This document shows positions 7,235 through 23,929 of a stretch of DNA of 64,000 nucleotides, in pieces. Source of the DNA: an uncultured Candidatus Saccharibacteria bacterium (GTDB lineage: Bacteria > Patescibacteriota > Saccharimonadia > Saccharimonadales > Saccharimonadaceae); the NCBI GenBank assembly GCA_963522905.1, contig CAUQYS010000003.1, forward strand, positions 42,845 to 106,844, in the 5' to 3' direction. Under the pieces are notes generated by a model. The model saw only the letters and a list, made by a program, of their open reading frames with translations, was not told the origin of the DNA and ran no database searches. Position numbers and translations under genes: made by a program. Within the stretch, counting starts at the first letter, position 1; every line of letters begins with the position of its first letter.

Positions 7235-7322
7235 GGAGAGGTGCAGGAGTGGTTGAACTGGCCGCTCTCGAAAAGCGGTAAGCCGCAAGGCTTCGAGGGT
7301 TCGAATCCCTCTCTCTCCGCCA
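7235..7322 (+). tRNA. tRNA-Ser (anticodon CGA), CCA encoded
   Basis: Manual fold: acceptor GGAGAGG/TCTCTCC, anticodon stem CCGCT/AGCGG with loop CTCGAAA, long variable arm, T-arm GAGGG-TTCGAAT-CCCTC. Confidence 0.9.
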
Positions 7323-7510: not shown

Positions 7511-7939
7511 CTAGGTAGTCGAAGCGCCGGTGTTGCTGCTGTTGGTCGTGGTGTTGATGTTGCCACCAGGGATGATGGTGTTGATAACAAAGTTCACCGC
7601 GGCGTAGGCGAGCAGCGCCACTACGACACCAACGAGGGCATACATAATCGTATTCTTCGCGCCTTGTACCTGTGATGAATTACCACCAGAGACGACATAG
7701 CGAATACCACCGAAGATGATCATAATAACCGCGATAGCACCAACGAGGAATAGCATGATGTTGCTTACCCGTGTGAAGATACCGGCGTCACCAAAGAGAT
7801 CGGCAGGCTGGTCTTTGCCCCGTGAGCGGCTGGCACCATCTGACACGCCACCAATTGCAGCGCTGGGCGGTGCAGCAGCAATTATCCCACCCCCGATGAG
7901 GGCAAGAGCACTGATAGATAGTAGACATTTTTTTAGCAT
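7511..7939 (-). CDS. VirB2/TrbC-like two-helix pilin-like protein (solitary paralog)
   Basis: Trimmed to ATG 7937-7939 (MLKKCLLSISALALIGG...). A signal peptide is followed by helix IMLFLVGAIAVIMIIFGGIRY, loop VVSGGNSSQVQGAKNTIMY and helix ALVGVVVALLAYAAVNFV. Confidence 0.7.
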   Translation of the reverse strand: MLKKCLLSISALALIGGGIIAAAPPSAAIGGVSDGASRSRGKDQPADLFGDAGIFTRVSNIMLFLVGAIAVIMIIFGGIRYVVSGGNSSQVQGAKNTIMYALVGVVVALLAYAAVNFVINTIIPGGNINTTTNSSNTGASTT

Positions 7940-8858: not shown

Positions 8859-11726
8859 GTGAAGATTAGACGTCAAAAACGTGGGATCGTCATGCGCATC
8901 GCATCGGTTGTGGCTGTGAGTGGGCTCGCTATAGGCGGGCTTTTTTATGGTCTCAACTCGGTGAACGCAGCCGGTCTGAATAAAAACTATAATTATATCA
9001 AGGCAAATTACGCTGTGCCGAACGCCAACGTAGCCTGGGTGTCGCCCAACGGGGACGACAACAAGGGTAACGGAAGCGAGTCAGCACCGTACAAGAGCTT
9101 TGGTCGCGCCGTCACGAAGATCGGCGACGGCGGAACAGTGGTAGCAAAGAGTGGTATCTACCGCGAGCCACACTTTTTTGTGACGAAGAAGAATGTCACT
9201 ATGCAGGCAGCACCGAACGCTGAGGTGTGGCTGAAGGGTAGTGATGTTGTAACCAACTGGTCGCGCGAGGGCAATACGTGGAAGGCCACCGGCAACTTCC
9301 AGAACTTCTGCCACGTCTGTACGACCAATATCAAGCCAGAAGTCGAAGGTATGGCTGCCTACCCAGAGCAGGTCTTTATTAATGACAAGCCACTGACGCA
9401 GGTGGGGAGCAAGGCTGAGGTCGGCCCAGGCAAGTTCTATGTGGAAGACGCCACTCAGACGACGCGTAGCGGTGGGCACTTCAACCCAGGCCGGCAAGAC
9501 ACCGTGAGTTACTACCTAGGCTCAGACCCAACGGCTGGCACAACGGAGATCTCGCAGCGCACTCGCGCCTTTACTACAACAGGCGAGAACTTCAAGCTGC
9601 AGGGTATTAATATTTCGCAATACGCACCTAACCAAACCTGGGGCTTTAAAGACCCACAGCTGGATGACAAGGCTGGGCCAATCGCTATCTCCATCAACGG
9701 GAAGAACTCGCTGGTGCAAGATGTGATCGTAGCGCAGAACTCGAACTCGGGGTTGTTCCTCGATAAAGCATCGGGCAGCGTAGTGAAGAACAGCCAATTC
9801 CTCGACAACGGGGGTAATGGTGCTGGTGCCAACCGCATCGAGAATGCGGTGTTTGAAAACAACACCTTTAGCAACAACAACGCCGCTGGCTTCGAAACCA
9901 ATGGTAGCTACTGTACCTCATGGTGTGGTATGGCCGATGTGAAGGTGACTCACGCCGAGAACTTCACCTTCCGCAACAACGTGGTGGATTACTCGAAGTC
10001 TGGCTCGACCAACTCCGACATCGCTGTGGCCAAGCGCCACCAGCTGCCAGGCTTCTGGTGTGATGAAGGATGTATTAACACCAACATCGTCAACAACTAC
10101 TTTACCAACGTCCAGATGGCGATCTTCTACGAGGTGTCGCACACTGGTATCATCGCTTCGAACATCATCGAGGGTTCGGGCTCTGGTATCTTAGTGTCGG
10201 GTAGCAGTAAGACGAAGATCTACAACAACTCTATCTCACGCACCGCCTACCCAATCCGCATCCGTGAGGATACCCGCAGCAAGGGTTGTAATGCCTACCA
10301 AGGTAGCACCTGTACTGCACCGGAGAGCTGGTCGCAGGCCAAAGGCCTGAGCTGGGATACAACAGGCACAGAGATGTACAACAACATCATCTCATCACGT
10401 GCCGCAACTGCCAAGGATGGCGATAGCCCATACTGGGCATACGGTGTCCGCACCAAGGGTGGTGCTAACATTGGCGGGCCAAAGGTTGGCACAAACGAGA
10501 TGTTTGCTGGCCTCGACTACAACGTCTACTACCGCAACGATACCAATGTCGACAAGACCGTCTTTACCTGGGACTTGGCTCAGACGGACGCGCCGATCGA
10601 CGTTCTCTTTAGCAAGACATCCGACATTGCCAAAGATGGCCGGGTCAGCAAGGCGATCGATGGCCTGGAGCGCAACTCGCTCGACCAAACTGGCTCACGC
10701 AGCGCCAACCCATTCTTCACCAGCGAAGCTGCGAACAACAACGACTACAACAAGAGTAACTACACCATCAAGGCTGGAAGCCCAGCTGCCAACAGTGGTA
10801 AGGAGCTGCCTGCCGACGTAGCGAAGGCAATCGACCCAAGCGGTGCAACCGTGAAGGCCGGCACCAAGGTGAACCGTGGTGCACTGGTCAACGCCAACAT
10901 GACTGGTGGCGAACCAAACATCAGCAGTAAGAGCAGTAGCACCCCACAACAAAATAACGCCAACGGTGCAACGACCAACGGGCAGGCAAACCCAAAAGCA
11001 CCGGGCATGGGCAGCGCCAGTAAAGCTGACACTGCTCATGCAGCCCAAACTGCTGAAGCCGACACCAAGAGTGACAACAGCACTGTAGCGGTCCCAGACG
11101 CCCATCTTAAGGCGGCAATCAACAAGCGCTTGTCTGAGACCCTTGGCGCACGCCGCAGTGCCTCACAGGACGTAACAGCAGGCGAGATGCAAAAGTTGAC
11201 TGGCCTGTCGCTCATCCTGCCGGGTGATGCAGCAGATGACCGCAAAGTGGCCGACCTGACTGGTCTTGAGGTGGCAACGAACCTCGACTGGCTGGCAATT
11301 GATGGCAACAAAGTGAAGAGCCTTGCACCGCTCGCCAAGCTAACCAAGCTGACTTCGTTGACCGCTCATTCCAACCAGATCGAGTCGCTTGACCCAATCG
11401 CTGGCCTGGCGAACCTCAAGCTTGTGATGGTCTCGGGCAATCCAATTACCTCCACCAAGCCGCTTGCTAAGCTTGCGCACCTCAAGCGGGTCTCGCTCTC
11501 GGGCAAAGATGGCTTCGTGCTAGACATTGCCGACGTTGCGGCCAGCAAGAGCAGCCTGGAGTCGCTCTCACTCTACGACTACAGCCGCAAGACCACACTG
11601 GCCAACGGTAGCCAACTAGCGACATTTGGCAGCCTCAAGAAGCTTCGCCTCACTGGCGTCAAGCTAAATGCTGCCGATAGCGCCGCCATTGGCACACTCA
11701 AACTCGAAAAGCGCCGCATAGACTAG
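8859..11726 (+). CDS. Secreted right-handed beta-helix (pectate-lyase-like) protein with C-terminal leucine-rich repeats
   Basis: 955 aa with a GTG start after SD GGGGAGG. Signal peptide IASVVAVSGLAIGGLFYGLNSVNAAG. PbH1-like repeats (NSGLFLDKASGSVVKNSQFLDNGGNGAGANRIENAVFENNTFSNNNAAGFE). A Ser/Asn/Ala-rich linker is followed by ~22-aa LRRs (LTSLTAHSNQIESLDPIAGLANLKLVMVSGNPITS). Confidence 0.7.
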   Translation: MKIRRQKRGIVMRIASVVAVSGLAIGGLFYGLNSVNAAGLNKNYNYIKANYAVPNANVAWVSPNGDDNKGNGSESAPYKSFGRAVTKIGDGGTVVAKSGIYREPHFFVTKKNVTMQAAPNAEVWLKGSDVVTNWSREGNTWKATGNFQNFCHVCTTNIKPEVEGMAAYPEQVFINDKPLTQVGSKAEVGPGKFYVEDATQTTRSGGHFNPGRQDTVSYYLGSDPTAGTTEISQRTRAFTTTGENFKLQGINISQYAPNQTWGFKDPQLDDKAGPIAISINGKNSLVQDVIVAQNSNSGLFLDKASGSVVKNSQFLDNGGNGAGANRIENAVFENNTFSNNNAAGFETNGSYCTSWCGMADVKVTHAENFTFRNNVVDYSKSGSTNSDIAVAKRHQLPGFWCDEGCINTNIVNNYFTNVQMAIFYEVSHTGIIASNIIEGSGSGILVSGSSKTKIYNNSISRTAYPIRIREDTRSKGCNAYQGSTCTAPESWSQAKGLSWDTTGTEMYNNIISSRAATAKDGDSPYWAYGVRTKGGANIGGPKVGTNEMFAGLDYNVYYRNDTNVDKTVFTWDLAQTDAPIDVLFSKTSDIAKDGRVSKAIDGLERNSLDQTGSRSANPFFTSEAANNNDYNKSNYTIKAGSPAANSGKELPADVAKAIDPSGATVKAGTKVNRGALVNANMTGGEPNISSKSSSTPQQNNANGATTNGQANPKAPGMGSASKADTAHAAQTAEADTKSDNSTVAVPDAHLKAAINKRLSETLGARRSASQDVTAGEMQKLTGLSLILPGDAADDRKVADLTGLEVATNLDWLAIDGNKVKSLAPLAKLTKLTSLTAHSNQIESLDPIAGLANLKLVMVSGNPITSTKPLAKLAHLKRVSLSGKDGFVLDIADVAASKSSLESLSLYDYSRKTTLANGSQLATFGSLKKLRLTGVKLNAADSAAIGTLKLEKRRID

Positions 11727-12293: not shown

Positions 12294-12929
12294 CTACTGC
12301 AGCCGCAGGTAAATAATCAACCGCTCAAGCAAGTCGGGCTTGCGCTCGCTCATTGGGAGGTGAGAGGCGATGAGATCAACGAGTTGCTCGCCCACATCCT
12401 CGGGGAAGTACATGACGATAGGCATAGCGAAGCGTTTACGTGGGATGAGCGTGATCCAATTCTGCGTGGGCTTGGCAGTAACGCTAAAGGAGCGGAAGGT
12501 GTCGTACGAGTAAGTCCGCTGGCCCACCACCACCTCGGCGTGGCTAGCGCTATAATTCAGTAGGGCAGCTGGCCGCTGCAGCGAGACGATCAATGCCACC
12601 GCCATAATGGGAATGAGCAGCGCAAAGGTGTAGGACTTAAACAAAAAGATCGAAATTGCGAAGAGCACCACCACAACCACGCCAAAAATCACATACCAGC
12701 CACGGGGGCGGGTGGTATCATTTACCTCGCGCTCTTGCCAGATGAGGAGCGGCTCGGTGGGGTCGGGGAAGGGCGAAACCTGCGACGAATTGCTATTGGC
12801 TTCACTCGGCCCACGGCGAATCTCGAGCGGTGGGTTGGGCTCATCAGTAGCCTGCGTCTCAGCACGAGTGGTGCGCGATGGGTCGGCGGCATCTGAGGAT
12901 GATGACTGATCGAATTGCGATGGCTGCAT
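12294..12929 (-). CDS. Hypothetical membrane protein (two central TM helices)
   Basis: Trimmed to ATG 12927-12929 (MQPSQFDQSSS...), because TGcTATACT lies 6 nt upstream (leaderless). TM helices are WYVIFGVVVVVLFAISIFLF and FALLIPIMAVALIVSL. Confidence 0.55.
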   Translation of the reverse strand: MQPSQFDQSSSSDAADPSRTTRAETQATDEPNPPLEIRRGPSEANSNSSQVSPFPDPTEPLLIWQEREVNDTTRPRGWYVIFGVVVVVLFAISIFLFKSYTFALLIPIMAVALIVSLQRPAALLNYSASHAEVVVGQRTYSYDTFRSFSVTAKPTQNWITLIPRKRFAMPIVMYFPEDVGEQLVDLIASHLPMSERKPDLLERLIIYLRLQ

Positions 12930-13107
12930 ATGTTTAGTATAGCATAGAGTAGAACTCAGGGCATACTCCATCGGATAAGAATGGTAGAAAAATAAGATAA
13001 AGAAAGATGAAGATGAATTTTTGAGATCTGGGCTATGTGGCGATTTGATTCAATATAAAATACCCTCAGTAACACACCTGCTACCGAGGGTTCGAGTAAG
13101 CCCAACA

Positions 13108-13196
13108 TGGCGGAGAGAGTGGGATTCGAACCCACGGTAGGGGGTGCCTACGCCGGTTTTCAAGACCGGTACCTTCAACCACTCGGTCATCTCTCC
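13108..13196 (-). tRNA. tRNA-Ser (anticodon TGA), CCA encoded
   Basis: The reverse complement reads GGAGAGATGACCGAGTGGTTGAAGGTACCGGTCTTGAAAACCGG...GTGGGTTCGAATCCCACTCTCTCCGCCA. Anticodon loop is CTTGAAA. Confidence 0.9.
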
Positions 13197-14719: not shown

Positions 14720-15051
14720 GTGCTACGGGTAGCTAATAAGGTCTTTCATGGTATTCTTGTCTTATATATTCTTATTTCGTTTAGTAGAGCGTGAATATTG
14801 GCAATCTGGGGCTGGTAGACGGCACTCTAAGAGGTTAGCGCTGTAGTAATCGGAGAAGAGGGTTTCAGATGGAATTTCTTAGCTAGAGTAGAATAGTATG
14901 GCTAGTGCTACGCAAAAACGGCTAATATTAGACATCTCTGCAGTAAGAAGAGACAAGATTTCTTGCACGAGCGTCAACAAGCATATTCCTAACGAAAGTA
15001 CCACCCTGCGAGAGGGTGGTATAAGAGAGCCAATGAAGAAAGGTGGTTGTG

Positions 15052-15492
15052 TTATTGCCCTTGGTTGGCACCGATATTGACGACGACGAAGTTGACGAGC
15101 GCGTAGGCGATGATCGCAACGACAAGACCAACGATGGCGTACATGATGGTGTTCTTAGCGCCAGTAACGGCATTTGAGTCACCATTTGATACGGTATAGC
15201 GCACACCGCCGATGACGATCATGATAACAGCGACTGCACCAACGATGAAGAGGATCACGTTGACGACAGTTTGAAAGATACCAGTGCCTTCAGTACAGCC
15301 TTCTTTTTCGCTACCAAAGAGACAACTTACTTGGTCGTTCCCCTTAGCAGAGCCAACTCCCTTCCTGAGGCCAAGACCGTTGTCGGATGCAGCTGCTGCG
15401 CCAACGTGTGGAGCTACCAGCCCAGCAACACCTGCAGCTAGCACTGGCACGGCGAGGAGTGTAAGCATAGCTTTTTTGATATTGATTTTCAT
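15052..15492 (-). CDS. VirB2/TrbC-like pilin-like protein (array member 6)
   Basis: Signal peptide MKINIKKAMLTLLAVPVLAAG and Cys pair CLFGSEKEGC. Module: ILFIVGAVAVIMIVIGGVRYTVSNGDSNAVTGAKNTIMYAIVGLVVAIIAYALVNFV. Confidence 0.75.
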   Translation of the reverse strand: MKINIKKAMLTLLAVPVLAAGVAGLVAPHVGAAAASDNGLGLRKGVGSAKGNDQVSCLFGSEKEGCTEGTGIFQTVVNVILFIVGAVAVIMIVIGGVRYTVSNGDSNAVTGAKNTIMYAIVGLVVAIIAYALVNFVVVNIGANQGQ

Positions 15493-15649
15493 TGTCGTAT
15501 CCTTTCTATTGGCGTTAGTACTGTCTTGTACTACCTGTACTATCTATATATACCAAAAATTTGCCAAAATGTTAAGAGCTAACGGAGAAAATTACCGAAA
15601 AAGAGCCTATTTTATTGCAGAATGCAAGCAAAGTAAATGATAGTGGTAG

Positions 15650-16102
15650 TTAGACGTAATTATATTGGGCGGTTGGAGTGGATTGGCCACCACCACTCAC
15701 GAGGTTATCAACGACGAAATTGACCATGGCATAGGCGAGAATAGCCACAACAAGGCCGACAATAGCGTAGAGAATGGTATTTTTGGCACCCTGGATGCCG
15801 TTTGAGTCGCCGTTAGATGTGGTGTAGCGAATACCACCGATGACGATCATGACGACGGAGATAGCGCCGAGGGCAAAGAGCATGATGTCGATGATGCTTT
15901 TGATAGCTGAGCCGATGGTTATTTGGTTGCTGTCTCCACCAGCACCCTTGATGCCTTCCTTAACCTTTTCCTTTGCCGTAGTGCTTGCCGCAAAGGTGTT
16001 GATGGGTGATGGCGCTGCTGCGCTGATCGATGGGGCAATGGCACCAGCTACAACAGTGGAGCAGATGCTTGCGCTGAGAAGTATTTTTGTAAAGGTATTC
16101 AT
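15650..16102 (-). CDS. VirB2/TrbC-like pilin-like protein (array member 5)
   Basis: Signal peptide MNTFTKILLSASICSTVVAGA. Module: IMLFALGAISVVMIVIGGIRYTTSNGDSNGIQGAKNTILYAIVGLVVAILAYAMVNFV. SD GGGAG lies upstream. Confidence 0.75.
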   Translation of the reverse strand: MNTFTKILLSASICSTVVAGAIAPSISAAAPSPINTFAASTTAKEKVKEGIKGAGGDSNQITIGSAIKSIIDIMLFALGAISVVMIVIGGIRYTTSNGDSNGIQGAKNTILYAIVGLVVAILAYAMVNFVVDNLVSGGGQSTPTAQYNYV

Positions 16103-16118
16103 GGTGGTTGTATCTCCC

Positions 16119-16547
16119 TTATGTTATCGATATTCTATCAGTAATCCAATTTACTATACCATAGGCAAGTATAGCAATGACAAGACCTGCTACTGCATAG
16201 AGGATAGTGTTGCGAGCGGCCTTAACTTTCTGTGGGTCGCCATCAGCTAATGTAAAGCGAAAGCCCGCATAGACAATCATAAGGGCAGAGACGCCACCAA
16301 GAACAACGAGGGCAATGTTAATGCCACGTGTGACGATGACCATTGGAGTGAGAGCACCACCTTGTGCACTTGAAGTTACCGCATGGCAGCCATCGTTACC
16401 ATCACCGTCGGTAGCTAGATCGCAGGCATTATCAGTCTTGAGTTCTCCTGTGACGTCAACACGGGCAAAGGCGGAGGGTGAATAGGTAAGACCGAGCAAC
16501 AGGGCTGTACCAATAAGACAGAGTGTGCGCTGTAGAGATAGCTTCAT
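16119..16547 (-). CDS. VirB2/TrbC-like pilin-like protein (array member 4)
   Basis: Trimmed to ATG 16545-16547 (MKLSLQRTLCLIGTALLLG...). Cys pair NACDLATDGDGNDGC. Module: INIALVVLGGVSALMIVYAGFRFTLADGDPQKVKAARNTILYAVAGLVIAILAYGIVNWI. The start shares one nt with the upstream stop (TGATG). Confidence 0.7.
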   Translation of the reverse strand: MKLSLQRTLCLIGTALLLGLTYSPSAFARVDVTGELKTDNACDLATDGDGNDGCHAVTSSAQGGALTPMVIVTRGINIALVVLGGVSALMIVYAGFRFTLADGDPQKVKAARNTILYAVAGLVIAILAYGIVNWITDRISIT

Positions 16548-16837
16548 CAAAAGACTCCATTTAGAACAGTATTGGTAATGACAAAAGCGAGAAGAACAAC
16601 AGCGAGACCAACAATGGCACCAAGCAGGGTGTTCTTGGCGCGACTTACTTGGCTTGGGTCGTCTTGTGACACGGTATACATAAAACCCGCTACAATAATG
16701 ACGATAACTGCAACCACCCCGGCCCAAATATAAGCAGTGTTAAGGACATTTTGAAGAATGCTTGAGTTATCCGCGGAGCTTTGGTATTTGATATCTTGTG
16801 CACTAACACCTTTGAGGGCTGAGAATATAGGCCACAT
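16547..16837 (-). CDS. VirB2/TrbC-like pilin-like protein lacking a signal peptide (array member 3)
   Basis: 96 aa. Contains ...AYIWAGVVAVIVIIVAGFMYTVSQDDPSQVSRAKNTLLGAIVGLAVVLLAFVITN. The ATG directly follows the stop of 16838..17242 (TAAATG). Confidence 0.65.
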   Translation of the reverse strand: MWPIFSALKGVSAQDIKYQSSADNSSILQNVLNTAYIWAGVVAVIVIIVAGFMYTVSQDDPSQVSRAKNTLLGAIVGLAVVLLAFVITNTVLNGVF

Positions 16838-17242
16838 TTAGATAACTCCCGCTACCATATCAACAATTGCTGCTGCTGAGATTGCAATAACGAGACCAAT
16901 AAGAGCATCGCGGATCGTGTTCTTTGCTTTAGCCATTGCATCGGGGCTGCCTGTACTGACCATATACATATAGCCACCCTTAATGATAAACCCAACGGCA
17001 ACATAGGCAACGATAACCATTGCAGCCTGAAGGATATTGAGGGCAATTGTGAGGATCATCGTCTGGATGTCGGTCGTTTGGATCGAACTGCAATCGTTCG
17101 AGTCTTGGAGACCACGGTACCAAGCGGGCATACCAAGGAAGTTGGGTGGTGAACAGGGTGCAGCAGCGTGCGCTGGAGTAGCAGACGCAAAGGAGAGTAT
17201 GGTGGCAACAGCAAGCCCAAAAACAGCAAGACGGCGAATCAT
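16838..17242 (-). CDS. VirB2/TrbC-like pilin-like protein (array member 2)
   Basis: Signal peptide MIRRLAVFGLAVATILSFASATPAHA and Cys pair (PCSPP...NDCSS). Module: ILQAAMVIVAYVAVGFIIKGGYMYMVSTGSPDAMAKAKNTIRDALIGLVIAISAAAIV. ATGA overlap with the upstream gene. Confidence 0.65.
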   Translation of the reverse strand: MIRRLAVFGLAVATILSFASATPAHAAAPCSPPNFLGMPAWYRGLQDSNDCSSIQTTDIQTMILTIALNILQAAMVIVAYVAVGFIIKGGYMYMVSTGSPDAMAKAKNTIRDALIGLVIAISAAAIVDMVAGVI

Positions 17243-17637
17243 CGGATAATTCCTCCTGGCACAAGGAAGTTAAGCGCAATACCCATAACTGCATATGCCA
17301 AAATACCAATGACAACATTAGTGATAACTGTCTTGGCTTGGGCTGTTTTGTTGGCATCACCGCTAGCAGTTGAGTAGAGAATACCAGCGTAAATAAGCGC
17401 GCCAACGGCCGCAATGCCAACGCCGACATTCATGATTCTGAGAACGCCAATGAGTAGGCTAGAGATGTTGTCATCTCCCTTATCTTTTGGGTTAGCCTCT
17501 TGGGAACAACTTACGCCTGTGAAGTCAATAATCCCGCAGCCACTGCCTGTTGCCATCACCTGCACTGGCGCAGCAATACTACCGGCAAACATCGCCAGCA
17601 CTGCACCAAGGCCCAAGATTAATCGCTTATATTTCAT
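17239..17637 (-). CDS. VirB2/TrbC-like pilin-like protein (array member 1)
   Basis: Trimmed to ATG 17635-17637 (MKYKRLILGLGAVLAMFAGS...). Cys pair GCGIIDFTGVSC. Module: LLIGVLRIMNVGVGIAAVGALIYAGILYSTASGDANKTAQAKTVITNVVIGILAYAVMGIALNFL. Confidence 0.65.
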   Translation of the reverse strand: MKYKRLILGLGAVLAMFAGSIAAPVQVMATGSGCGIIDFTGVSCSQEANPKDKGDDNISSLLIGVLRIMNVGVGIAAVGALIYAGILYSTASGDANKTAQAKTVITNVVIGILAYAVMGIALNFLVPGGIIR

Positions 17638-17936
17638 GATACTATTCCTACGCTGTAGTGTATACGATACGAGCGGTGTTGTAAAGACTGGGGTGGGGTG
17701 CGAACAGAGTAGGAGTGAGGGGTTATATATTGGCATTGTTATAATGGTGCATAAAATTTGAGTTGCTTGATCTATCGGGCGATTTCCTCCCTGTTGTGTT
17801 ACTCAGGAGGAGATGATAAATTGCGGATGGTTATTGTGGCTCAGCACTGGGGATGTGACCTTAGATAATGGTAGCCCGTACAACAGCTCAGAGAGCTGCG
17901 CGCTATACAAGGTTTTGATATGCAGGCAGCAAAAAC

Positions 17937-17965
17937 TTGACCACTGTGCGATATTATGCTAATGT
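17937..17965 (+). promoter_or_regulatory. Sigma70-type promoter TTGACC-N17-TAATGT (with TGc extension)
   Basis: TTGACC (17937-17942) and TGcTAATGT (17957-17965). The ATG at 17976 follows 10 nt later, giving a near-leaderless transcript. Confidence 0.5.
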
Positions 17966-17975
17966 CGAACAAGAC

Positions 17976-20945
17976 ATGAACAGAGCGTGGCGAGTGGTTG
18001 CGCGGGCGAGGGGTTGTCTGCGGCAATATACGGGGTGGCTGGCACTATTAGTGACGGCACTCTTAGGGCTCACGCTCGCTACCCCTGTGCCGGTGTATGC
18101 TGCTGAGACGGCACAGCGCCAGGGCGAGAACCTCGTCTTTCGTCATAATACCTTCAAGCCACACCGAGCCAACGACAAAGATCTGACTGCTCGTGGTTTA
18201 CCTGCTGGTGTGCACTTCTATGAGTATGAGCCAACGACCAATCGGCGCCAAACCATCGTCTTCCCAGCTGGTAGTGATCCGCTTCGTGCCAAGGAAGCGA
18301 CGTACGTAGAGTATATCTTTGTTGAGCCAGATACGTATAACAAGATGGATGATGCCATTGCCATCTCTGTCTCGGGGCAGCAGGAGGCCGCGCCGCAAAA
18401 TAATGGTGGCCAAAACAACCAAAATAACCAAAATAACGGTGGTCAAGCTGAGCAAAACGCTGGTAATAATCAGAACAACGCCAACGGCCAAAATGGTGGG
18501 AATAACGGCCAAGCGGCAAATAATAACAACAACCAGCCCCAAGACAAACCCGCCGAGCAAGCAGACAAAGATGATGGTGCCACGACCAGTTGTAGTGGCA
18601 CAGCGCTGGGAAGCATTGGCTGGATTGTCTGCCCAGTGAGTAACTTCATGGCGTGGATCACTGACCAGCTTTACCAGCAAGTGGCGCAGTACTTGGCGGT
18701 GCAGCCACTCCAATCTAGCGGCGATGGCACACTCTTTCGTTTTTGGGCGATCATGCGCGACTTGGCCAACATCGCCTTTATCATCGTCTCGCTCATCGTA
18801 ATTTATTCGCAAGTTACCAGTGTTGGTATTAGCAATTATGGCATCAAGAAGATGTTTCCGCGCCTTGTCGTGTCAATTATCGTCGTTAATATGTCGTTTT
18901 GGCTATGTGCGGCAGCGATTGATATTTCGAACATACTGGGCTTTCAGCTGCAGCAGCTGTTTGTCAATATTGCCTCGACGGTTAACGGGGCGGATTATAA
19001 TACGCTTAACAAAATTACGTGGCCTAATATCATGAGTGCTCTACTGACGGGTAGCGCTGGTGCGGTGGGTGCGGTGGTGGGAGTGAGTGCACTGGTGGGC
19101 GCGACCGATGGGGCGCTGGCGATGGCTATTCCGCTGCTGGTGGGTGTCCTGCTGGCGGTCATCATCGCTGCGGTAATTATTGCGGCGCGTCAGGCGCTTA
19201 TCACGATTCTTGTTATCATCTCGCCCTTTGCCTTCTTGCTGCATGTGCTGCCCAGTACAGAGAAGTATTTTGATAAGTGGAAGGATCTCTTTATGACGAT
19301 GATGCTGATGTTTCCGCTGATGTCGATATTGTTTGGTGGATCGCGCCTGGCAGGAGTAGCTATCCTGACCAATGGTAAGGATGCGAACAATCTCAACCTC
19401 ATCATCCTTGGATTGGCAGTGCAGGTGGTGCCACTGGTGCTAACGCCCTTTGTGGTGCGGATGAGTGGCTCGCTGCTTGGTCGGCTGGGCGCGATTATGA
19501 ATGATCCGCGGCGTGGCATCGTTGACCGGACGCGAACCTGGGCGCAACAGCGGGCAGACCTGCGCAAATCGCGCGTGCTTGCTGGTGATGCGCAGCGCAA
19601 CTGGCTGGGCAATGCAGCGCGGCGGAAAGCCCTGAAGAAGCGCGCTATTCAGCAGCGAACCGATGCTTATACGAAGCGCTTTGAAACAATGGCCGACTTA
19701 TCGGCGGTGGGGCGGAGCAACGATGAATACAACCGCTACACCGACCTGCGTGGCAAGGAGGGAGCAGCGCGGCGCGACCGAGCCTGGAACGTGCGCCTCT
19801 TGCATGATAATGAGCTCAAGCAGCGAGCGCTTAATACCCAGCTCACCTCTGATGAAGCCAAGAATGCCGCCCATAAGCTGGATACGCTCTATGATGAGCT
19901 GAAGCTTGGCGGTGAGGTGCCAGCTGGCTTGAGCCATGGCCTGGGGCGACGCGCTTATGCGGCAGCTGAGGTGGGTGCACTAACGGAGATCCGCAGTGCG
20001 ATGGCGCAGCGCGAAGTGCGGGCGAAGATCGACCGTGAGCTCCTCGCTGATGGGGCAGTAGCTAATGCTGATGGTGTGGTGCTGCGCGATGGCGATGGCA
20101 TTGCCTTGCGCCGCCGGATGGTCGATGGCCAGACGCTGCAAGATTACGCCACAGGGGTAGGGCACAAGAACCTGATGGTAGCAGGCCAGACGGCGCGGCT
20201 GCGCAAGGAGTTTGGCGAGCATGTTGCGGCGGAAGACCAGCTGATGCGCCACTTCAAGCTCAACAGTAACCAATGGCAAGCTATGGCTGCTACTGGTGAT
20301 ACTGCCATCACCCTCACCGATGCTAGTGGCAACCAGCACACCTTCCGGGCGGACAATGAGTACGTGAAGGAGGCGGCTATCGAGCACCAATTCCGCGCCG
20401 GCTCGGCTGGCCAAAAGCGCGAGATCATCCGCGAGACTGGCCGCGAGATCGAATACGTGGCAGACGATGGCACGGTGCAGGTGCGTCAGGGGTACAACTA
20501 TGATGCCCGCGCCACTGTCTCGGCTGAGGCGGTGGCCTCTGGGGTGGCGAGTGCGGTGCCATTTGTGAATGACGTGACGTACGATGCAATCTTGCGCGGC
20601 GAATACAACGGTGCAGCTGCCGAGAAGATGCACTCGCTACGCCAAGTCTTTGAGGGGCGGCTCAAGGCAGAGAACTTCGCTGGGGCAAATGATGGCGCAC
20701 TAGAGCTGATCTATAGTATCCCCGACTTGCCCGACTACCAGCAGATCAAAGACTCGTATCTTCGCACCCTCTCGCCTGAGAAACGGGCTGCCATCGAGCC
20801 GACTTTTGACCAAGCTTATGCTGAGCGTCACCAAGCCCTTCGCCACGATGCTTACCGCATTCTCAACACTCCAGAGCTCCGCCGCAATACCAATGCCGCC
20901 AACCGTGCTGTGTATGAGCGGTATGCGGAGCGGCCGCAGGGGTAG
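17976..20945 (+). CDS. VirB6/TrbL-like polytopic membrane protein with N/Q-rich ectodomain and long hydrophilic C-terminal domain
   Basis: Trimmed to ATG 17976 (MNRAWRVVARARGCLRQYTGWLALLVTALLGLTLATPVPVYAAE). An Asn/Gln/Gly low-complexity tract is followed by at least 6 hydrophobic helices (LANIAFIIVSLIVIY, LVVSIIVVNMSFWLCAAAI, AIPLLVGVLLAVIIAAVIIAA, ITILVIISPFAFLLHVL, LFMTMMLMFPLMSILFGG, LIILGLAVQVVPLVLTPFVV). A ~480-aa hydrophilic tail follows. Assignment rests on architecture and pilin neighbourhood only. Confidence 0.55.
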   Translation: MNRAWRVVARARGCLRQYTGWLALLVTALLGLTLATPVPVYAAETAQRQGENLVFRHNTFKPHRANDKDLTARGLPAGVHFYEYEPTTNRRQTIVFPAGSDPLRAKEATYVEYIFVEPDTYNKMDDAIAISVSGQQEAAPQNNGGQNNQNNQNNGGQAEQNAGNNQNNANGQNGGNNGQAANNNNNQPQDKPAEQADKDDGATTSCSGTALGSIGWIVCPVSNFMAWITDQLYQQVAQYLAVQPLQSSGDGTLFRFWAIMRDLANIAFIIVSLIVIYSQVTSVGISNYGIKKMFPRLVVSIIVVNMSFWLCAAAIDISNILGFQLQQLFVNIASTVNGADYNTLNKITWPNIMSALLTGSAGAVGAVVGVSALVGATDGALAMAIPLLVGVLLAVIIAAVIIAARQALITILVIISPFAFLLHVLPSTEKYFDKWKDLFMTMMLMFPLMSILFGGSRLAGVAILTNGKDANNLNLIILGLAVQVVPLVLTPFVVRMSGSLLGRLGAIMNDPRRGIVDRTRTWAQQRADLRKSRVLAGDAQRNWLGNAARRKALKKRAIQQRTDAYTKRFETMADLSAVGRSNDEYNRYTDLRGKEGAARRDRAWNVRLLHDNELKQRALNTQLTSDEAKNAAHKLDTLYDELKLGGEVPAGLSHGLGRRAYAAAEVGALTEIRSAMAQREVRAKIDRELLADGAVANADGVVLRDGDGIALRRRMVDGQTLQDYATGVGHKNLMVAGQTARLRKEFGEHVAAEDQLMRHFKLNSNQWQAMAATGDTAITLTDASGNQHTFRADNEYVKEAAIEHQFRAGSAGQKREIIRETGREIEYVADDGTVQVRQGYNYDARATVSAEAVASGVASAVPFVNDVTYDAILRGEYNGAAAEKMHSLRQVFEGRLKAENFAGANDGALELIYSIPDLPDYQQIKDSYLRTLSPEKRAAIEPTFDQAYAERHQALRHDAYRILNTPELRRNTNAANRAVYERYAERPQG

Positions 20946-20967: not shown

Positions 20968-21606
20968 CTAGCGCGCAGTGTCTGCTTTTGCCACTGCTTT
21001 TTTGTACGATCTTCGAGACAGTCGGCCTGCCAGTGGTGCTGCCACAACAACTCCCCCAAAGCCAGCCGCTACTGCTTTTGCTGCGTTGCTTTGCTGGGTT
21101 GCAAGCCTCTCTTCGCGCGACGGCTGTGCGCCCAGATCAGCTACGTCTGAGGGGTCAACGACGGCAGTGTCATCGGTTGTTTCGATGAAGACTTTTGGAG
21201 GAGTAAGGTGGTTAATGTCACCCGGATATTCGCAAATTACCAAGCAGCCCATATATGAGGCAGCGAGTGATGCAGCCCCACCCAGTATCAATGCCATACC
21301 ACCCATTTCGCAGGCTACATCAAGTCGTGACAATTGATGGCTTCTCTGCTCGAGATACTCGGCACGAGCCCCATGAATCGCCCTTTGGGTTGCCTCATCC
21401 ATAACTGCTTCGTCTGGGCTAGAGCCGCTGGTCGATAGCTCGGCTGGTGTCTGCGGGTAGGATTCAGTCATTGCTGGAGTAGGGAAGACCGCTGTTGGGT
21501 TGCTTTTGCTATAGGTAGAATCAAGATGTGATGCTATAAAGGACGGCAGCTCAGTTGCAAGACTGGTTGATGACTTTGGCAGTATGGCAGGTGGTTGGTT
21601 TCTCAT
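20968..21606 (-). CDS. Hypothetical membrane protein
   Basis: Trimmed to ATG 21604-21606 (MRNQPPAILPKSS...). Hydrophobic segments are MGGMALILGGAASLAASYMGCLVI and AVAAGFGGVVVAAPLAG. Convergent with the VirB6-like gene. No homology recognised. Confidence 0.4.
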   Translation of the reverse strand: MRNQPPAILPKSSTSLATELPSFIASHLDSTYSKSNPTAVFPTPAMTESYPQTPAELSTSGSSPDEAVMDEATQRAIHGARAEYLEQRSHQLSRLDVACEMGGMALILGGAASLAASYMGCLVICEYPGDINHLTPPKVFIETTDDTAVVDPSDVADLGAQPSREERLATQQSNAAKAVAAGFGGVVVAAPLAGRLSRRSYKKAVAKADTAR

Positions 21607-21788
21607 GACCGAGGTCGATTCCTTGTGTTTGTCAGAAATTATTGTAAATGATAGTTTGATCATACAAACTAATGACATAGTTTGTCAAGCTAATAAGATC
21701 TGCGGCCTCTAACCATTACTCTCATAATTTTCGTCTGGGTGAGGTGTGGTGGGCCCAATATAGAATCTAATACTCTTATCCTCCACAC

Positions 21789-21816
21789 CCAAAACCCACC
21801 GACCAAGCGGTGGGTT
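21789..21816 (-). terminator. Rho-independent terminator (minus strand) after the ABC operon
   Basis: Stem AACCCACCG/CGGTGGGTT with a 6-nt loop. On the minus strand it is followed by TTTT. Confidence 0.6.
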
Positions 21817-21879
21817 ATGAGGCACGAAACAGAGGTAATGTGCCAGTTTTTTGCTGTAATAGACTAGCGCGCTGTGCTG

Positions 21880-23094
21880 CTACTTGCGGGTAAAGATCTC
21901 GCGCAGGCTGAGCTTGCGGCTGTACTCGAGTGCGCCAAAGCGGAAGAGGCGCACGCCCATCATGATGGCGATGACGGCACAGACAGTCAGGATGCTAATG
22001 CTAATGGCGGCGTCTGTCGCACTGAGGTTGCCAATCGCATTGCGCAGCATGAGTGGGATGGGCGAGGTAAGTGGGAAGTAGGTGATGATCTTGCTTGGCA
22101 GCGCGTCTGGTGTGGAGACGAGCATAGCGGCGGCATAGAGCGGCGCAAAGAGCAGGATCATGATGGTGGCAAAGAAGCTACCAGCTTCCTTGGCGGTGGG
22201 TACAGCGGCACCAATAGCCACCAGCATACCAGTGAAGAAGAGGAAACTTGCGGCAAAGGCAAGGAAGCCTATCCCAATTCGCACGGGGTCAACCGCAATG
22301 TGCGAGAGGTCGACATCGGGCAACTGCAGCTGGTCTTTGAAGAAGAGATAAGCAACAAGCACTGGCAAAATAACGAGCAACCCCTGAATAAACGCCAGGA
22401 CGATGAGCGAGATAATCTTGCCGATGATGAGTGTGCGAGCGTGCACCGTGGTGAGGATCATCTCAATGACACGGTTTTCCTTTTCCTCTGTTGTGCTGGT
22501 GAGCATTTGGTTGCCAAAGAAGCTAATGAGGAAGTAGAACAGCACCAAGAAAAGCCCGGGTAGGATCATCTCATTGATGGCGTTGTATTCTTTGCCATTT
22601 TTGTAGACGGTATTCTTGGTGTTAATTTTGTCTTGGATGACCATGCGCACTGCTGGGCTGACCTCTGATTGGACAGAGTTAGAGAGTAGGCTGGTGGCGA
22701 TGCCGCTGTAGCGGCCGTTGTCAAAGAGCCCAACATCTTTGCCATAGACTTCCACCCGTTCTTTGGCGATGTCTTTGGGGTAGTAGATGTAGGCGTCGAG
22801 CTTACCTTCTTGGACTCGCTTGATGGTGGCGTCTTTGTCCGTGGCAGCGACGGGCTGGGCTTTGGTGGCGGCGAGCAGCTCTGGCTTGACGAGCTTGGAC
22901 TCATCCGTCACGGCAAAGCTAAAGGCTTGCTTCTCGAGGTTCTTAGCAGCATCGGCCGAGGCTTTATTAGAGAGGAATATAACCCCAAAGAGCACGGCAA
23001 ACACCAGCGGGAAGCTGATTGCCGCAAGCCAAAACGACTTCTTCTTGAGCGAACGGGTAATCTCGAACCGGATGACGGTAGATAGGTTATGCAT
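21880..23094 (-). CDS. ABC-2 type transporter permease (NatB-like topology)
   Basis: Trimmed to ATG 23092-23094 (MHNLSTVIRFEITRSLKKKSFW...), 1 nt after the ATPase stop. One N-terminal TM helix, a large extracytoplasmic domain, and 5 C-terminal TM helices. Confidence 0.75.
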   Translation of the reverse strand: MHNLSTVIRFEITRSLKKKSFWLAAISFPLVFAVLFGVIFLSNKASADAAKNLEKQAFSFAVTDESKLVKPELLAATKAQPVAATDKDATIKRVQEGKLDAYIYYPKDIAKERVEVYGKDVGLFDNGRYSGIATSLLSNSVQSEVSPAVRMVIQDKINTKNTVYKNGKEYNAINEMILPGLFLVLFYFLISFFGNQMLTSTTEEKENRVIEMILTTVHARTLIIGKIISLIVLAFIQGLLVILPVLVAYLFFKDQLQLPDVDLSHIAVDPVRIGIGFLAFAASFLFFTGMLVAIGAAVPTAKEAGSFFATIMILLFAPLYAAAMLVSTPDALPSKIITYFPLTSPIPLMLRNAIGNLSATDAAISISILTVCAVIAIMMGVRLFRFGALEYSRKLSLREIFTRK

Positions 23095-23095
23095 A

Positions 23096-23839
23096 TTAGT
23101 TGTCCTCCTTGCTGGGCTGGCTATAGACCTGGATGAAGATATCGTCGAGCGATTTGCCGCCAAACTGCGCGCGCACCTCGTCTACTGTACCATAGGCATG
23201 AGCCACGCCGTCTTTGAGCAGCAAGATGCGGTCGCACAAGCGCTCAACTTCGTCCATCTGGTGGGTGATCATCACGACTGTGGCACCCTTGGCTTGGTGC
23301 TCCTCAATGATTTCCATGAGCAAGCGCCGGTTGACGGGGTCGAAACCTTTGGTGGGTTCGTCGAGAATGATAAGCTCTGGGTCGTTGATGATGGTGATAC
23401 CGAGCTGAACCTTTTGCTGCTGGCCACCACTGAGCTTATCCAGGCGGGTCTTGGCTTTGTCGGCCAGGCCAACCCGCTCGAGGAAGGCGAGTGACTTGCT
23501 GCGTGCCTCGCTGCGGCTGAGGCCTTTGAGCTGGCCAAAGTAGACCATCGTGTCGATGACGCTCTCCTTCTTGTACAGGCCGCGCTCTTCGGGCAGGTAA
23601 CCAAGCTTGACGTCGCCCGAGACAGAGTATGGCTTGCCATCGATGAGCAGCTCGCCACCAGTTGGTTGATAAATGCCGAGGAGTGAGCGGATCGTGGTGG
23701 TCTTGCCCGAGCCGTTGCTCCCCAAAAACCCAAACGTCTCGCCGCGTTTCACCTCAAAGCTGAGGTCGTCGATGACGCTGGTCTTGCCAAATTTCATCGA
23801 AAAATGGCTGACGGTGATGATAGAATCTGTTACTTCCAT
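23096..23839 (-). CDS. ABC transporter ATP-binding protein
   Basis: Walker A GSNGSGKTTT, signature LSGGQQQKV, Walker B LIILDEPT. TGaTATGAT lies 6 nt upstream of the ATG (leaderless). Confidence 0.92.
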   Translation of the reverse strand: MEVTDSIITVSHFSMKFGKTSVIDDLSFEVKRGETFGFLGSNGSGKTTTIRSLLGIYQPTGGELLIDGKPYSVSGDVKLGYLPEERGLYKKESVIDTMVYFGQLKGLSRSEARSKSLAFLERVGLADKAKTRLDKLSGGQQQKVQLGITIINDPELIILDEPTKGFDPVNRRLLMEIIEEHQAKGATVVMITHQMDEVERLCDRILLLKDGVAHAYGTVDEVRAQFGGKSLDDIFIQVYSQPSKEDN

Positions 23840-23914
23840 AACGATATCATATCATATCGAGGTGCGATGTAAAGAGCAGCGATATAATATCCAAAAAACA
23901 TAGCTTGCCAGCCA

Positions 23915-23923
23915 TGCTACAAT
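23915..23923 (+). promoter_or_regulatory. Extended -10 promoter (TGcTACAAT), leaderless
   Basis: TGcTACAAT is followed by 6 nt (actcct) and ATG 23930. Confidence 0.6.
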
Positions 23924-23929
23924 ACTCCT

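What the first reader, a model, noticed from the sequence alone, without database searches (positions are those of the whole stretch)
15052..17637. Tandem array of six diversified VirB2/TrbC-like pilin paralogs with translational coupling
Six consecutive minus-strand genes (96-150 aa) all end in the same ~70-aa module: a hydrophobic helix, a short polar loop (xSxGDxxxxxxAKNTI), and a second helix (xYAxxGLVVAxxAYxxVNF). This is the architecture of T4SS pilins.
- Their N-terminal exposed halves are unrelated.
- Four carry exactly one Cys pair: CLFGSEKEGC, NACDLATDGDGNDGC, PCSPP..NDCSS and GCGIIDFTGVSC.
- One (16547..16837) has no signal peptide.
- Stop/start overlaps at ATGA 17239-17242, TGATG 16545-16549 and TAAATG 16835-16840 suggest co-translation at fixed ratios.

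Classical T4SSs use one pilin. Seven paralogs, divergent from a VirB6-like gene, suggest a heteromeric or host-range-variable surface filament whose composition and function are not described.
Basis: partly seen in the sequence, partly recalled or inferred. Interest (0 to 1): 0.7.

Follow-up and report, generated by a model that had tools for sequence, protein, structure and literature searches.

The report
Known six-pilin array of Saccharibacteria
The six small genes are real VirB2-like secretion-system pilin genes. They are this genome's copy of a six-pilin cluster already described in Saccharibacteria and shown there to be essential, so the finding is correct but not new.

Summary
Six co-oriented minus-strand genes (15052-17637) share a two-helix C-terminal module of about 70 aa and have unrelated N-terminal parts. 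The Cys pairs and stop/start overlaps are as described, and a seventh paralog lies at 7511-7939. Five of the six pass Pfam's threshold for PF18895 T4SS_pilin, and one also passes TrbC/VirB2. The genome is a Saccharibacteria (Saccharimonadia) chromosome.

The claim that the array is undescribed is wrong. It was noted in 2018. It was shown to be essential in Southlakia epibionticum by Tn-seq in 2023, catalogued in 2025 (441 arrays), and reviewed as [quoted passage not shown].

This analysis adds three points:
- The six genes plus the seventh are position-specific orthologs across Saccharimonadia, including the signal-peptide-less fourth gene and the Cys pairs at positions 3, 5 and 6. dN/dS is below 1 throughout. 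This favours a fixed set of differentiated subunits over antigenic or host-range variation.
- In distant relatives the array and its VirB6-like gene sit next to PrgI, TraC-like, VirB4 and CHAP genes.
- In this clade those genes are absent from the window, so the cluster is split. VirB4 could not be located in this genome.

Whether a pilus forms is still unknown.

The parts
15052..15492 (-). Pilin g1 (146 aa). It has a signal peptide, an exposed N-terminal part with the Cys pair CLFGSEKEGC, and the two-helix module. It is the last gene of the array and the most conserved within the clade.
   Evidence: PF18895 at 43.3 bits. The AF2 hairpin covers residues 72-143 with pLDDT of about 84-95. C-module dN/dS is 0.02. 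Position-1 orthologs are found in 22 of 23 distant loci.
15650..16102 (-). Pilin g2 (150 aa). It has a signal peptide and no Cys in the mature part.
   Evidence: PF18895 at 33.2 bits. Position-2 orthologs are found in 21 of 23 loci.
16119..16547 (-). Pilin g3 (142 aa). It has a signal peptide and the Cys pair NACDLATDGDGNDGC. Its start overlaps the g4 stop (TGATG).
   Evidence: PF18895 at 40.2 bits. The position-3 Cys pair is present in 22 of 23 distant loci. By best BLAST hit this is the least conserved position: 2 of 23 hit g3.
16547..16837 (-). Pilin g4 (96 aa). It has no signal peptide, only the two hydrophobic helices after a polar lead of about 35 aa.
   Evidence: PF18895 at 42.5 bits, and TrbC/VirB2 PF04956 at 28.1 bits against a cut-off of 27.9. 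Position-4 orthologs have exactly two hydrophobic segments in 23 of 23 loci.
16838..17242 (-). Pilin g5 (134 aa). It has a signal peptide and a conserved N-terminal motif, C..FLGMPAWYRGLQ..C. Its start overlaps the g6 stop (ATGA).
   Evidence: PF18895 at 44.3 bits. Position-5 orthologs are found in 23 of 23 loci, and the Cys pair in 22 of 23.
17239..17637 (-). Pilin g6 (132 aa from the ATG at 17637; the ORF extends to 17736). It has a signal peptide, the Cys pair GCGIIDFTGVSC and a conserved C-terminal LNFLVPGGI. It is the first gene of the array, next to the VirB6-like gene.
   Evidence: PF18895 gives only 20.4 bits, below the cut-off. An HMM of the paralog module gives 78.9 bits. Position-6 orthologs are found in 23 of 23 loci. 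The gene is called as 132 aa in the strains.
7511..7939 (-). Seventh, unlinked pilin paralog g7 (142 aa from MLKKCLL). It has no Cys in the mature part and shares the DQPADLFG..GIF motif with g1.
   Evidence: 89.4 bits with the module HMM. PF18895 is listed in precomputed tables for the identical gene. An orthologous 'extra' pilin is present in 18 distant loci.
17937..20945 (+). VirB6-like polytopic membrane protein (up to 1002 aa; the start is uncertain, since strains-984 aa). It has a Q/N-rich exposed region and a long hydrophilic C-terminal domain. It is transcribed divergently from the array.
   Evidence: There are 826 homologs, most carrying PF19590 TrbL_3 in precomputed tables. The window protein itself gives only TrbL at E=0.17, and 2 of 27 family members hit TrbL. 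The gene is adjacent to the T4SS core genes in relatives.
17638..17936 (.). Divergent intergenic region between g6 and the VirB6-like gene. It holds promoter-like matches on both strands.
   Evidence: Consensus matches lie at 17685-17657(-), 17664-17636(-) and 17730-17757(+). These are pattern matches only.
14999..15021 (-). Terminator-like hairpin about 30 nt after the g1 stop. It is the probable end of the operon.
   Evidence: The stem has 9 pairs, 5 of them G-C, followed by a T-rich tail. This is a pattern match only.

Best explanation
**Shown**
- This is the Saccharibacteria chromosomal T4SS pilin array: six co-oriented genes, plus one unlinked paralog, for VirB2-like (Pfam T4SS_pilin) two-helix membrane proteins. 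They sit next to a divergently transcribed VirB6-like gene.
- Each array position is a distinct ortholog conserved across Saccharimonadia.

**Inferred mechanism**
- The six genes are transcribed as one unit from the divergent promoter region. A possible extra promoter precedes g1.
- g6, g5, g4 and g3 are translationally coupled through overlapping or abutting stop and start codons.
- Five of the six products, and the unlinked g7, are exported by Sec and lose their signal peptides. g4 inserts without one.
- All are then helical hairpins in the membrane. The polar loop (..S.GD....AKNT..) faces the cytoplasm, and the variable, often disulfide-stapled N-terminal parts lie outside.
- The VirB4-driven T4SS core, encoded elsewhere in this genome, would extract them and assemble them into one heteromeric wall-spanning or extracellular structure. 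In that structure the paralogs would play non-redundant roles, for example a major subunit plus minor, tip or base subunits.
- As proposed for S. epibionticum, that structure would serve the epibiont-host interface rather than conjugation.
For: - **Family.** PF18895 is above threshold for 5 of 6 genes, and TrbC is above threshold for g4. All 86 aligned relatives hit T4SS_pilin and 23 also hit TrbC. Sources name close relatives 'pilin' or 'Type IV secretion system pilin'. The family has 80,295 representative clusters.
- **Fold.** AF2 gives a confident helix-loop-helix at residues 72-143.
- **T4SS link.** In L088 and L089 the same six-gene array plus TrbL_3 is followed by a second TrbL_3, PrgI, TraC-like, VirB4 (DUF87/P-loop_TraG) and CHAP genes. 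VirB4, PrgI and TraC-like genes are found in 17-18 of the related loci.
- **Fixed set.** Exactly six modules lie upstream of the VirB6-like gene in nearly all loci with enough flank. Positional best hits are 22/23, 21/23, 21/23, 23/23 and 23/23 for positions 1, 2, 4, 5 and 6, and 18/18 for the extra gene. Signal-peptide absence and Cys pairs are position-specific.
- **Selection.** dN/dS is 0.02-0.15 in the module and 0.13-0.36 in the exposed part.
- **Coupling.** The stop/start overlaps are as described.
- **Literature.** The pilins are essential in S. epibionticum, which lacks a recognisable relaxase or coupling protein (PMC10633639). The 'six VirB2-like pilins' are reviewed in PMC12857230.
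Against: - No VirB4, PrgI or TraC-like gene lies in the 64 kb window or within 10 kb of the array in any locus of this clade. I could not locate VirB4 in this genome.
- No pilus has been seen in any Saccharibacterium that is attributable to these proteins (PMC12857230 treats it as a possibility).
- Foldseek against the PDB gave no match at E<=0.001, and no conjugative pilin appeared in the list. A sequence profile search of the PDB found nothing relevant. The structural link to VirB2 therefore rests on Pfam profiles alone.
- Position 3 is not cleanly orthologous by best hit.
- g6 is below the Pfam threshold.
- Heteromeric assembly is an inference from conservation and is not tested.
Confidence: 0.62

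Rival explanations
1. The paralogs are alternative pilins used for antigenic or host-range variation. They would be interchangeable major subunits whose variable exposed parts adapt the filament to different host strains, as proposed for Bartonella and Anaplasma VirB2 arrays and suggested for Patescibacteria.
For: - The exposed N-terminal parts are unrelated between paralogs.
- They evolve 2-5 times faster than the module.
- This is the interpretation offered in PMC12102498.
Against: - Gene number, order and position-specific features are conserved across loci whose VirB6-like protein is only 31-41% identical.
- dN/dS is below 1 in the exposed parts (0.13-0.36).
- The genes are co-oriented and translationally coupled, not individually switchable.
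- I did not look for inverted repeats, recombination cassettes or pseudogene donors. The array's ORFs are intact in the strains examined.
Confidence: 0.12
2. The proteins never form an external pilus. They would be membrane or cell-wall-spanning parts of the T4SS channel itself, a short stalk or conduit in a monoderm envelope, or assembly chaperones for it.
For: - The T4SS of Patescibacteria is related to the monoderm MPF-FATA class, which has no pilus (PMC12102498).
- No pilus made of these proteins has been imaged (PMC12857230).
- g4 lacks a signal peptide, and all seven proteins keep two membrane helices.
Against: - The family is profile-related to TrbC/VirB2 pilins.
- Disulfide-stapled exposed N-terminal parts at positions 3, 5 and 6 suggest extracellular exposure.
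- Nothing here discriminates a long filament from a short one.
Confidence: 0.2
3. They are secreted effectors or unrelated small membrane proteins (holins, bacteriocin-immunity proteins) that merely sit beside the T4SS. The TM7x transcriptome paper calls the equivalent genes 'six putative effector genes'.
For: - They are small proteins, most with signal peptides.
- The 'effector' label is used in bioRxiv 10.1101/2022.03.25.485537.
- There are weak Pfam side hits to DUF6112 and DctQ.
Against: - All 86 relatives hit T4SS_pilin, with a best E-value of 4e-27.
- No holin or immunity family appears among the hits.
- Two conserved transmembrane helices are not expected of soluble effectors.
- The gene set is conserved alongside the T4SS core in relatives.
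Confidence: 0.04

Closest known systems
Pilin array of the essential T4SS of Southlakia epibionticum ML1 (SEML1_0006-0019; Wang et al. 2023, PMC10633639; reviewed in PMC12857230)
   Same: - It belongs to the same class, Saccharimonadia.
- It has six sequence-divergent VirB2-like pilins in tandem, associated with VirB6-like genes.
- It is chromosomal, and no relaxase is seen nearby.
- The distant relatives examined here (L088, L089) show the array inside a full T4SS cluster, as described for ML1.
   Different: - In this window's clade the array and one VirB6-like gene stay at the ancestral site, but the PrgI, TraC-like, VirB4 and CHAP genes are not adjacent.
- Essentiality is not tested here.
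- I did not compare sequences with ML1 directly because its sequences were not at hand.
'Sec-secreted array' or 'six putative effector genes' of Nanosynbacter lyticus TM7x (bioRxiv 10.1101/258137; 10.1101/2022.03.25.485537)
   Same: - It is an array of 4-6 small signal-peptide proteins with VirB2 similarity, syntenic across the Saccharibacteria groups G1, G3, G5 and G6.
- Nanosynbacter relatives of the window pilins were recovered (P0169, P0175).
   Different: - The lineage is different, and identity to g1 is about 30-33%.
- The genes are interpreted there as effectors rather than pilins.
VirB2 arrays of Patescibacteria (Quinonero-Coronel et al. 2025, PMC12102498)
   Same: - It is one of the class of 441 arrays of 2-11 genes, detected with the same Pfam models (PF18895, PF04956).
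- Within-array identity here is low (24-48% to g1), comparable to their mean of 25%.
   Different: That paper proposes versatility towards different hosts. The position-specific orthology found here points to a fixed differentiated set, at least in Saccharimonadia.
Canonical conjugative pilins: VirB2 (Agrobacterium), TrbC (RP4), TraA (F)
   Same: - The pilin is small, with a signal peptide, two hydrophobic helices and a short polar loop.
- g4 passes the TrbC Pfam threshold.
   Different: - Canonical systems have one pilin per system and occur in diderm hosts.
- No sequence or fold match to solved pilin structures was obtained.
- Cyclisation, acetylation and lipid binding are unknown here.
VirB2 paralog arrays of Bartonella and Anaplasma
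   Same: Both show tandem amplification of VirB2-like genes beside a T4SS.
   Different: Those arrays are thought to serve antigenic variation. Here number, order and identity of the paralogs are conserved, with dN/dS below 1.
Mbov_0395 family pilin-like conjugal transfer protein of Mycoplasma ICEs (NCBIfam NF045849)
   Same: All six genes give sub-threshold matches of 22.8-37.7 bits over the two-helix module.
   Different: All scores are below the curated cut-off of 40 bits, so the genes are not members of that equivalog.

Membership tests
Pfam PF18895 T4SS_pilin | The profile match reaches the curated gathering score (26.6 bits). | tested here: met
   g1 to g5 score 43.3, 33.2, 40.2, 42.5 and 44.3 bits. 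g6 scores 20.4 bits, below the cut-off. g7 is listed with PF18895 in precomputed tables. All 86 of 86 relatives match.
Pfam PF04956 TrbC/VirB2 pilin | The profile match reaches the gathering score (27.9 bits). | tested here: inconclusive
   Only g4 passes, at 28.1 bits. g5 scores 15.9 bits and the others give no hit. Of 86 relatives, 23 hit TrbC at E<=0.01.
VirB2-type conjugative pilin (functional class) | The protein has two hydrophobic helices joined by a short polar loop, preceded by a cleavable signal peptide. | tested here: met
   AF2 places helices at 72-101 and 106-143 with pLDDT of about 84-95. Three hydrophobic segments are found at positions 1, 2, 3, 5 and 6 (one of 23 position-6 proteins has four) and two at position 4. 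Signal-peptide cleavage is inferred from sequence only, and g4 has no signal peptide.
VirB2-type conjugative pilin (functional class) | The structure resembles solved pilin subunits (TraA, VirB2, TrbC). | tested here: inconclusive
   Foldseek against the PDB gave no hit at E<=0.001 and listed no pilin. A bare helical hairpin is not discriminating. The profile search of PDB sequences was negative.
VirB2-type conjugative pilin (functional class) | The pilin gene is genetically linked to a VirB4 ATPase and T4SS core genes. | tested here: not met
   This is not met in the window or its clade: there are no VirB4, PrgI or TraC-like hits. It is met in distant relatives with the orthologous array. Whether VirB4 is present elsewhere in this genome was not determined.
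VirB2-type conjugative pilin (functional class) | The subunits polymerise into an extracellular filament. | not testable with these tools
   This needs microscopy or biochemistry. It has not been shown for any Saccharibacterium (PMC12857230).
Saccharibacteria T4SS six-pilin array (S. epibionticum type) | Six tandem, sequence-divergent T4SS_pilin genes lie in a Saccharimonadia chromosome. | tested here: met
   The taxon follows from the relatives found.
Saccharibacteria T4SS six-pilin array (S. epibionticum type) | The array is adjacent to a VirB6-like (TrbL_3) gene and orthologous by position to arrays in other Saccharimonadia. | tested here: met
   Position 3 is only weakly assignable.
Saccharibacteria T4SS six-pilin array (S. 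epibionticum type) | The array is embedded in a contiguous T4SS cluster (VirB3/PrgI, VirB4, VirB8-like, hydrolase). | tested here: not met
   Downstream of the VirB6-like gene come an unknown 236-aa ORF, an ABC-2 transporter, a spermidine-synthase-like gene and ribonucleotide reductase. The same layout is seen in the strains and the sister lineage.
Saccharibacteria T4SS six-pilin array (S. epibionticum type) | The array is essential for epibiotic growth. | not testable with these tools
   The Tn-seq result exists only for ML1 (PMC10633639).
Antigenic-variation VirB2 arrays (Bartonella/Anaplasma type) | The paralogs turn over or diversify rapidly, with lineage-specific copy number. | tested here: not met
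   There are six conserved positions across the class, and dN/dS is below 1.

The most novel reading that the evidence does not exclude
The seven paralogs are obligate, non-interchangeable subunits of one heteromeric VirB2-type filament or conduit built by a monoderm-type T4SS. That would be a composite conjugative-type pilus with a major subunit (g1 and/or g7), specialised minor subunits (Cys-stapled g3, g5, g6) and a signal-peptide-less initiator or base subunit (g4). It would be conserved since the origin of Saccharimonadia and used to tap the host cell.
Probability: 0.3. Interest if true: 0.7.

Novelty: already known. Interest (0 to 1): 0.3.

Why it matters
The Saccharibacteria T4SS is the only T4SS reported to be essential for the survival of the bacterium that carries it. 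Its pilins are the only VirB2-like pilins reported so far for a T4SS in a monoderm. How ultrasmall epibionts draw resources from their hosts is an open question. This window adds no new kind of system.

The comparative result obtained here does sharpen the question. Six array positions and a seventh gene each have their own conserved identity across the class, including one member without a signal peptide. That argues for a composite structure with differentiated subunits rather than a variation cassette. It also tells experimenters which paralogs to delete or tag individually. The split of the cluster in this human-associated clade shows that the array and the ATPase core need not be co-located.

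Tried and rejected
- **Fold search.** Foldseek of the AF2 model of g1 against the PDB gave no match at E<=0.001 and listed no conjugative pilin. A two-helix hairpin is too simple a fold to be discriminating.
- **PDB sequence search.** A profile of the family against PDB sequences returned only spurious membrane-helix hits.
- **NCBIfam.** Only sub-threshold hits to the Mycoplasma ICE pilin-like family were found, so the genes are not filed there.
- **VirB4 in this genome.** I queried with a Saccharimonadia VirB4 from L088 and tried to match 'longest contig' lengths to the contigs that carry the window's array. VirB4 is so conserved that 8000 candidates passed and all 120 hits listed were at least 88% identical, and none could be tied to this clade. 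The result is inconclusive.
- **dN/dS against the sister lineage L007.** dS was saturated. I used within-clade alleles instead.
- **Pfam on the VirB6-like protein and 26 relatives.** The tool's Pfam copy returned no TrbL_3 hit, and only 2 of 27 hit TrbL. The VirB6-like label therefore rests on precomputed PF19590 hits and on context.
- **Holin or immunity-protein reading.** Rejected: no such family appears among the hits.
- **Loci with a VirB6-like match but no pilin.** Eighteen loci showed this. Several are too short. Several of the others match best to the second VirB6 paralog. I did not pursue them.


Full report
**Observation.** The six genes exist as described.
- ORF listing and translation give minus-strand genes at 15052-15492 (g1, 146 aa), 15650-16102 (g2, 150 aa), 16119-16547 (g3, 142 aa), 16547-16837 (g4, 96 aa), 16838-17242 (g5, 134 aa) and 17239-17637 (g6, 132 aa).
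- The last ~70 residues align throughout, with pairwise identity of 27-63%. The preceding parts are 7-26% identical.
- The four Cys-pair motifs, the lack of an N-terminal hydrophobic segment in g4, and the ATGA, TGATG and TAAATG junctions are all present.
- An HMM built from the six modules finds one more copy in the window, at 7511-7939(-), and nothing else.

**What the proteins are.**
- Five of the six exceed Pfam's gathering score for PF18895 T4SS_pilin. g6 is below it at 20.4 bits. g4 also just passes TrbC/VirB2.
- NCBIfam gives only sub-threshold matches to the Mycoplasma ICE pilin-like family.
- A profile of the seven paralogs retrieves close relatives that sources name 'pilin' or 'Type IV secretion system pilin'. 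All 86 aligned relatives hit T4SS_pilin, and 23 also hit TrbC.
- The family is very large: 80,295 representative clusters at E<=0.001.
- AlphaFold2 on g1 with this alignment gives a confident helix-loop-helix at residues 72-143 and a poorly ordered N-terminal part.
- Structure and sequence searches of the PDB gave nothing specific. The link to VirB2 therefore rests on profile similarity and on genomic context.

**Organism and context.**
- The window is a housekeeping chromosomal region. It holds ValRS, tRNAs, HSP20, a ComF-like PRTase, an ABC-2 transporter, RNR, CTP synthase, ArgRS, DnaG, RpoD and PolA.
- Relatives of the divergent 1002-aa gene at 17937-20945 are Saccharibacteria/Saccharimonadia MAGs, several of them with oral-metagenome labels. 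Most carry PF19590 TrbL_3 (VirB6-like) in precomputed tables.
- The identical g1 protein occurs on many metagenomic contigs of up to ~1.03 Mb, with the same gene order.

**Link to a T4SS.**
- In two distant Saccharimonadia genomes (L088, L089) the same arrangement is found: a seventh pilin, PRTase, HSP20, six pilins, and a divergent TrbL_3 gene.
- There it is followed directly by a second TrbL_3, PrgI (VirB3-like), a TraC-like gene, a VirB4 ATPase (DUF87/P-loop_TraG) and a CHAP hydrolase.
- tblastn with those proteins finds PrgI, TraC-like and VirB4 in 17-18 of the related loci. It finds none in the window or in any locus of the window's own clade.
- In that clade the VirB6-like gene is followed by an ABC-2 transporter and RNR. 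The cluster is therefore split here.
- I could not determine where VirB4 lies in this genome, or whether it is present at all.

**Conservation pattern.** This is the main result that I did not find stated in the papers I read.
- Scanning 79 related loci shows exactly six pilin modules immediately upstream of the VirB6-like gene in nearly every locus with enough flank. This includes loci whose VirB6-like protein is only 31-41% identical. Most also have a seventh copy a few kb away.
- In 23 distant loci, the best match of each positional gene to the window's paralogs follows position: position 1 to g1 in 22/23, position 2 to g2 in 21/23, position 4 to g4 in 21/23, position 5 to g5 in 23/23, position 6 to g6 in 23/23, and the extra gene to g7 in 18/18. 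Position 3 is ambiguous.
- Features are position-specific. Position 4 never has a signal peptide (23/23). An exposed Cys pair is found at position 3 (22/23), position 5 (22/23) and position 6 (19/23), less often at positions 1 and 2, and never in the extra gene. Position 5 keeps a PAWY(R/K)GL motif, and position 6 keeps a C-terminal LIPGG(I/V)F-type motif.
- Within the window's clade, dN/dS is 0.02-0.15 in the module and 0.13-0.36 in the exposed parts. Against the sister lineage, dS is saturated but dN shows the same ranking.
- The paralogs are therefore old, individually maintained and under purifying selection.

**Mechanism.**
- Shown: family membership, gene order, stop/start coupling, position-specific conservation, and linkage to the T4SS core in relatives.
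- Inferred: co-transcription from the divergent intergenic region, with a terminator-like hairpin after g1 (pattern matches only); Sec export and signal-peptide cleavage for five of the six array genes and for the unlinked g7; signal-peptide-independent insertion of g4; and VirB4-dependent assembly into a single heteromeric wall-spanning or extracellular structure with differentiated subunits.
- The antigenic or host-range variation model is disfavoured by the conservation data.
- A short intramural conduit rather than a long pilus cannot be excluded.

**What is known.** The array is not new.
- McLean et al. (bioRxiv 10.1101/258137, 2018) described an array of 4-6 small signal-peptide proteins with VirB2 similarity in Saccharibacteria G1, G3, G5 and G6.
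- Wang et al. (2023, PMC10633639) found the T4SS of S. epibionticum ML1 and its 'series of predicted pilin subunits' essential by Tn-seq. They noted the lack of recognisable coupling protein and relaxase.
- Quinonero-Coronel et al. (2025, PMC12102498) reported 441 VirB2 arrays of 2-11 genes, especially in Saccharimonadia and Microgenomatia. They suggested host-adaptation versatility.

**Verdict.**
- The pilin interpretation is supported, and the novelty claim is not.
- This is the orthologous array in another Saccharibacteria lineage, so I rate it 'already known' with modest interest.
- The residual value lies in the position-specific orthology, which argues for a composite structure, and in the split cluster of this clade.

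Noticed in passing
Outside the window: proteins P0241-P0389, with sequences P0242, P0250 and P0274: The top hits of the pilin profile are single polypeptides holding 2-17 tandem pilin modules. Examples are P0241 (1775 aa, 17 modules) and P0242 (552 aa, 6 modules behind one signal peptide). In other organisms, arrays of this kind therefore also exist as fused 'poly-pilin' proteins. I did not find this mentioned in the papers I read.
   Followed up: partly
L049-L089 and L088:18689-20572: VirB4 is 87-95% identical in amino acids among Saccharimonadia loci whose adjacent VirB6-like proteins are only about 31-40% identical to the window's. All 120 database hits listed were at least 88% identical to the L088 VirB4. 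This is unusually strong conservation for a T4SS ATPase.
   Followed up: partly
Window 20968-25396, compared with L088:12817-22649: In this clade and its sister lineage (L007), the genes after the VirB6-like gene are an unknown 236-aa ORF, an ABC-2 transporter pair, a spermidine-synthase-like gene and RNR. Distant relatives instead have a second TrbL_3, PrgI, TraC-like, VirB4 and CHAP genes there. The T4SS cluster has been broken at this point.
   Followed up: partly
Window 8859-11726 (+): A 955-aa protein with Beta_helix/NosD and LRR_4 domains, possibly a surface protein or adhesin, lies between the seventh pilin and the array. It is present in the clade and in L007, but absent from this position in L088 and L089.
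   Followed up: no
L006:13429-17916, corresponding to the site next to tRNA-Ser at window 13108-13196: One strain carries an inserted element with a large serine recombinase (Resolvase/Recombinase) and a Replic_Relax gene where other strains have short hypothetical genes. This looks like an integrative element near the tRNA-Ser gene.
   Followed up: no
Window 17937-20945 (+), residues ~150-205: The VirB6-like protein has a long Q/N/G-rich low-complexity stretch (GGQNNQNNQNNGG...NNNNNQPQ) before its membrane domain, and a hydrophilic C-terminal region of about 480 aa (an 'extended VirB6'). The tool's Pfam copy gave no TrbL_3 hit for it or for 26 relatives, although precomputed tables list PF19590 for most relatives.
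   Followed up: partly
Window 12294-12971 (-) and 20968-21678 (-): Two ORFs without any Pfam family flank the region. The 225-aa one has same-sized unannotated counterparts close to the seventh pilin in distant relatives: 218 aa in L088 and 227 aa in L089. It may be a conserved unrecognised partner.
   Followed up: no
L063, L064, L065, L068, L074, L077, L080-L082, L085: These Saccharibacteria loci hold a VirB6-like gene with full 10 kb flanks but no pilin module and no VirB4. Several of them (L063, L064, L065, L068, L085) are among the best matches to the second TrbL_3 paralog of L088. VirB6-like genes therefore also occur outside the array and T4SS context.
   Followed up: no
Window 7235-7322 (+): ARAGORN calls a tRNA-Ser(cga) here, but Rfam's tRNA model did not report it at gathering threshold. 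It lies close to the seventh pilin gene.
   Followed up: no
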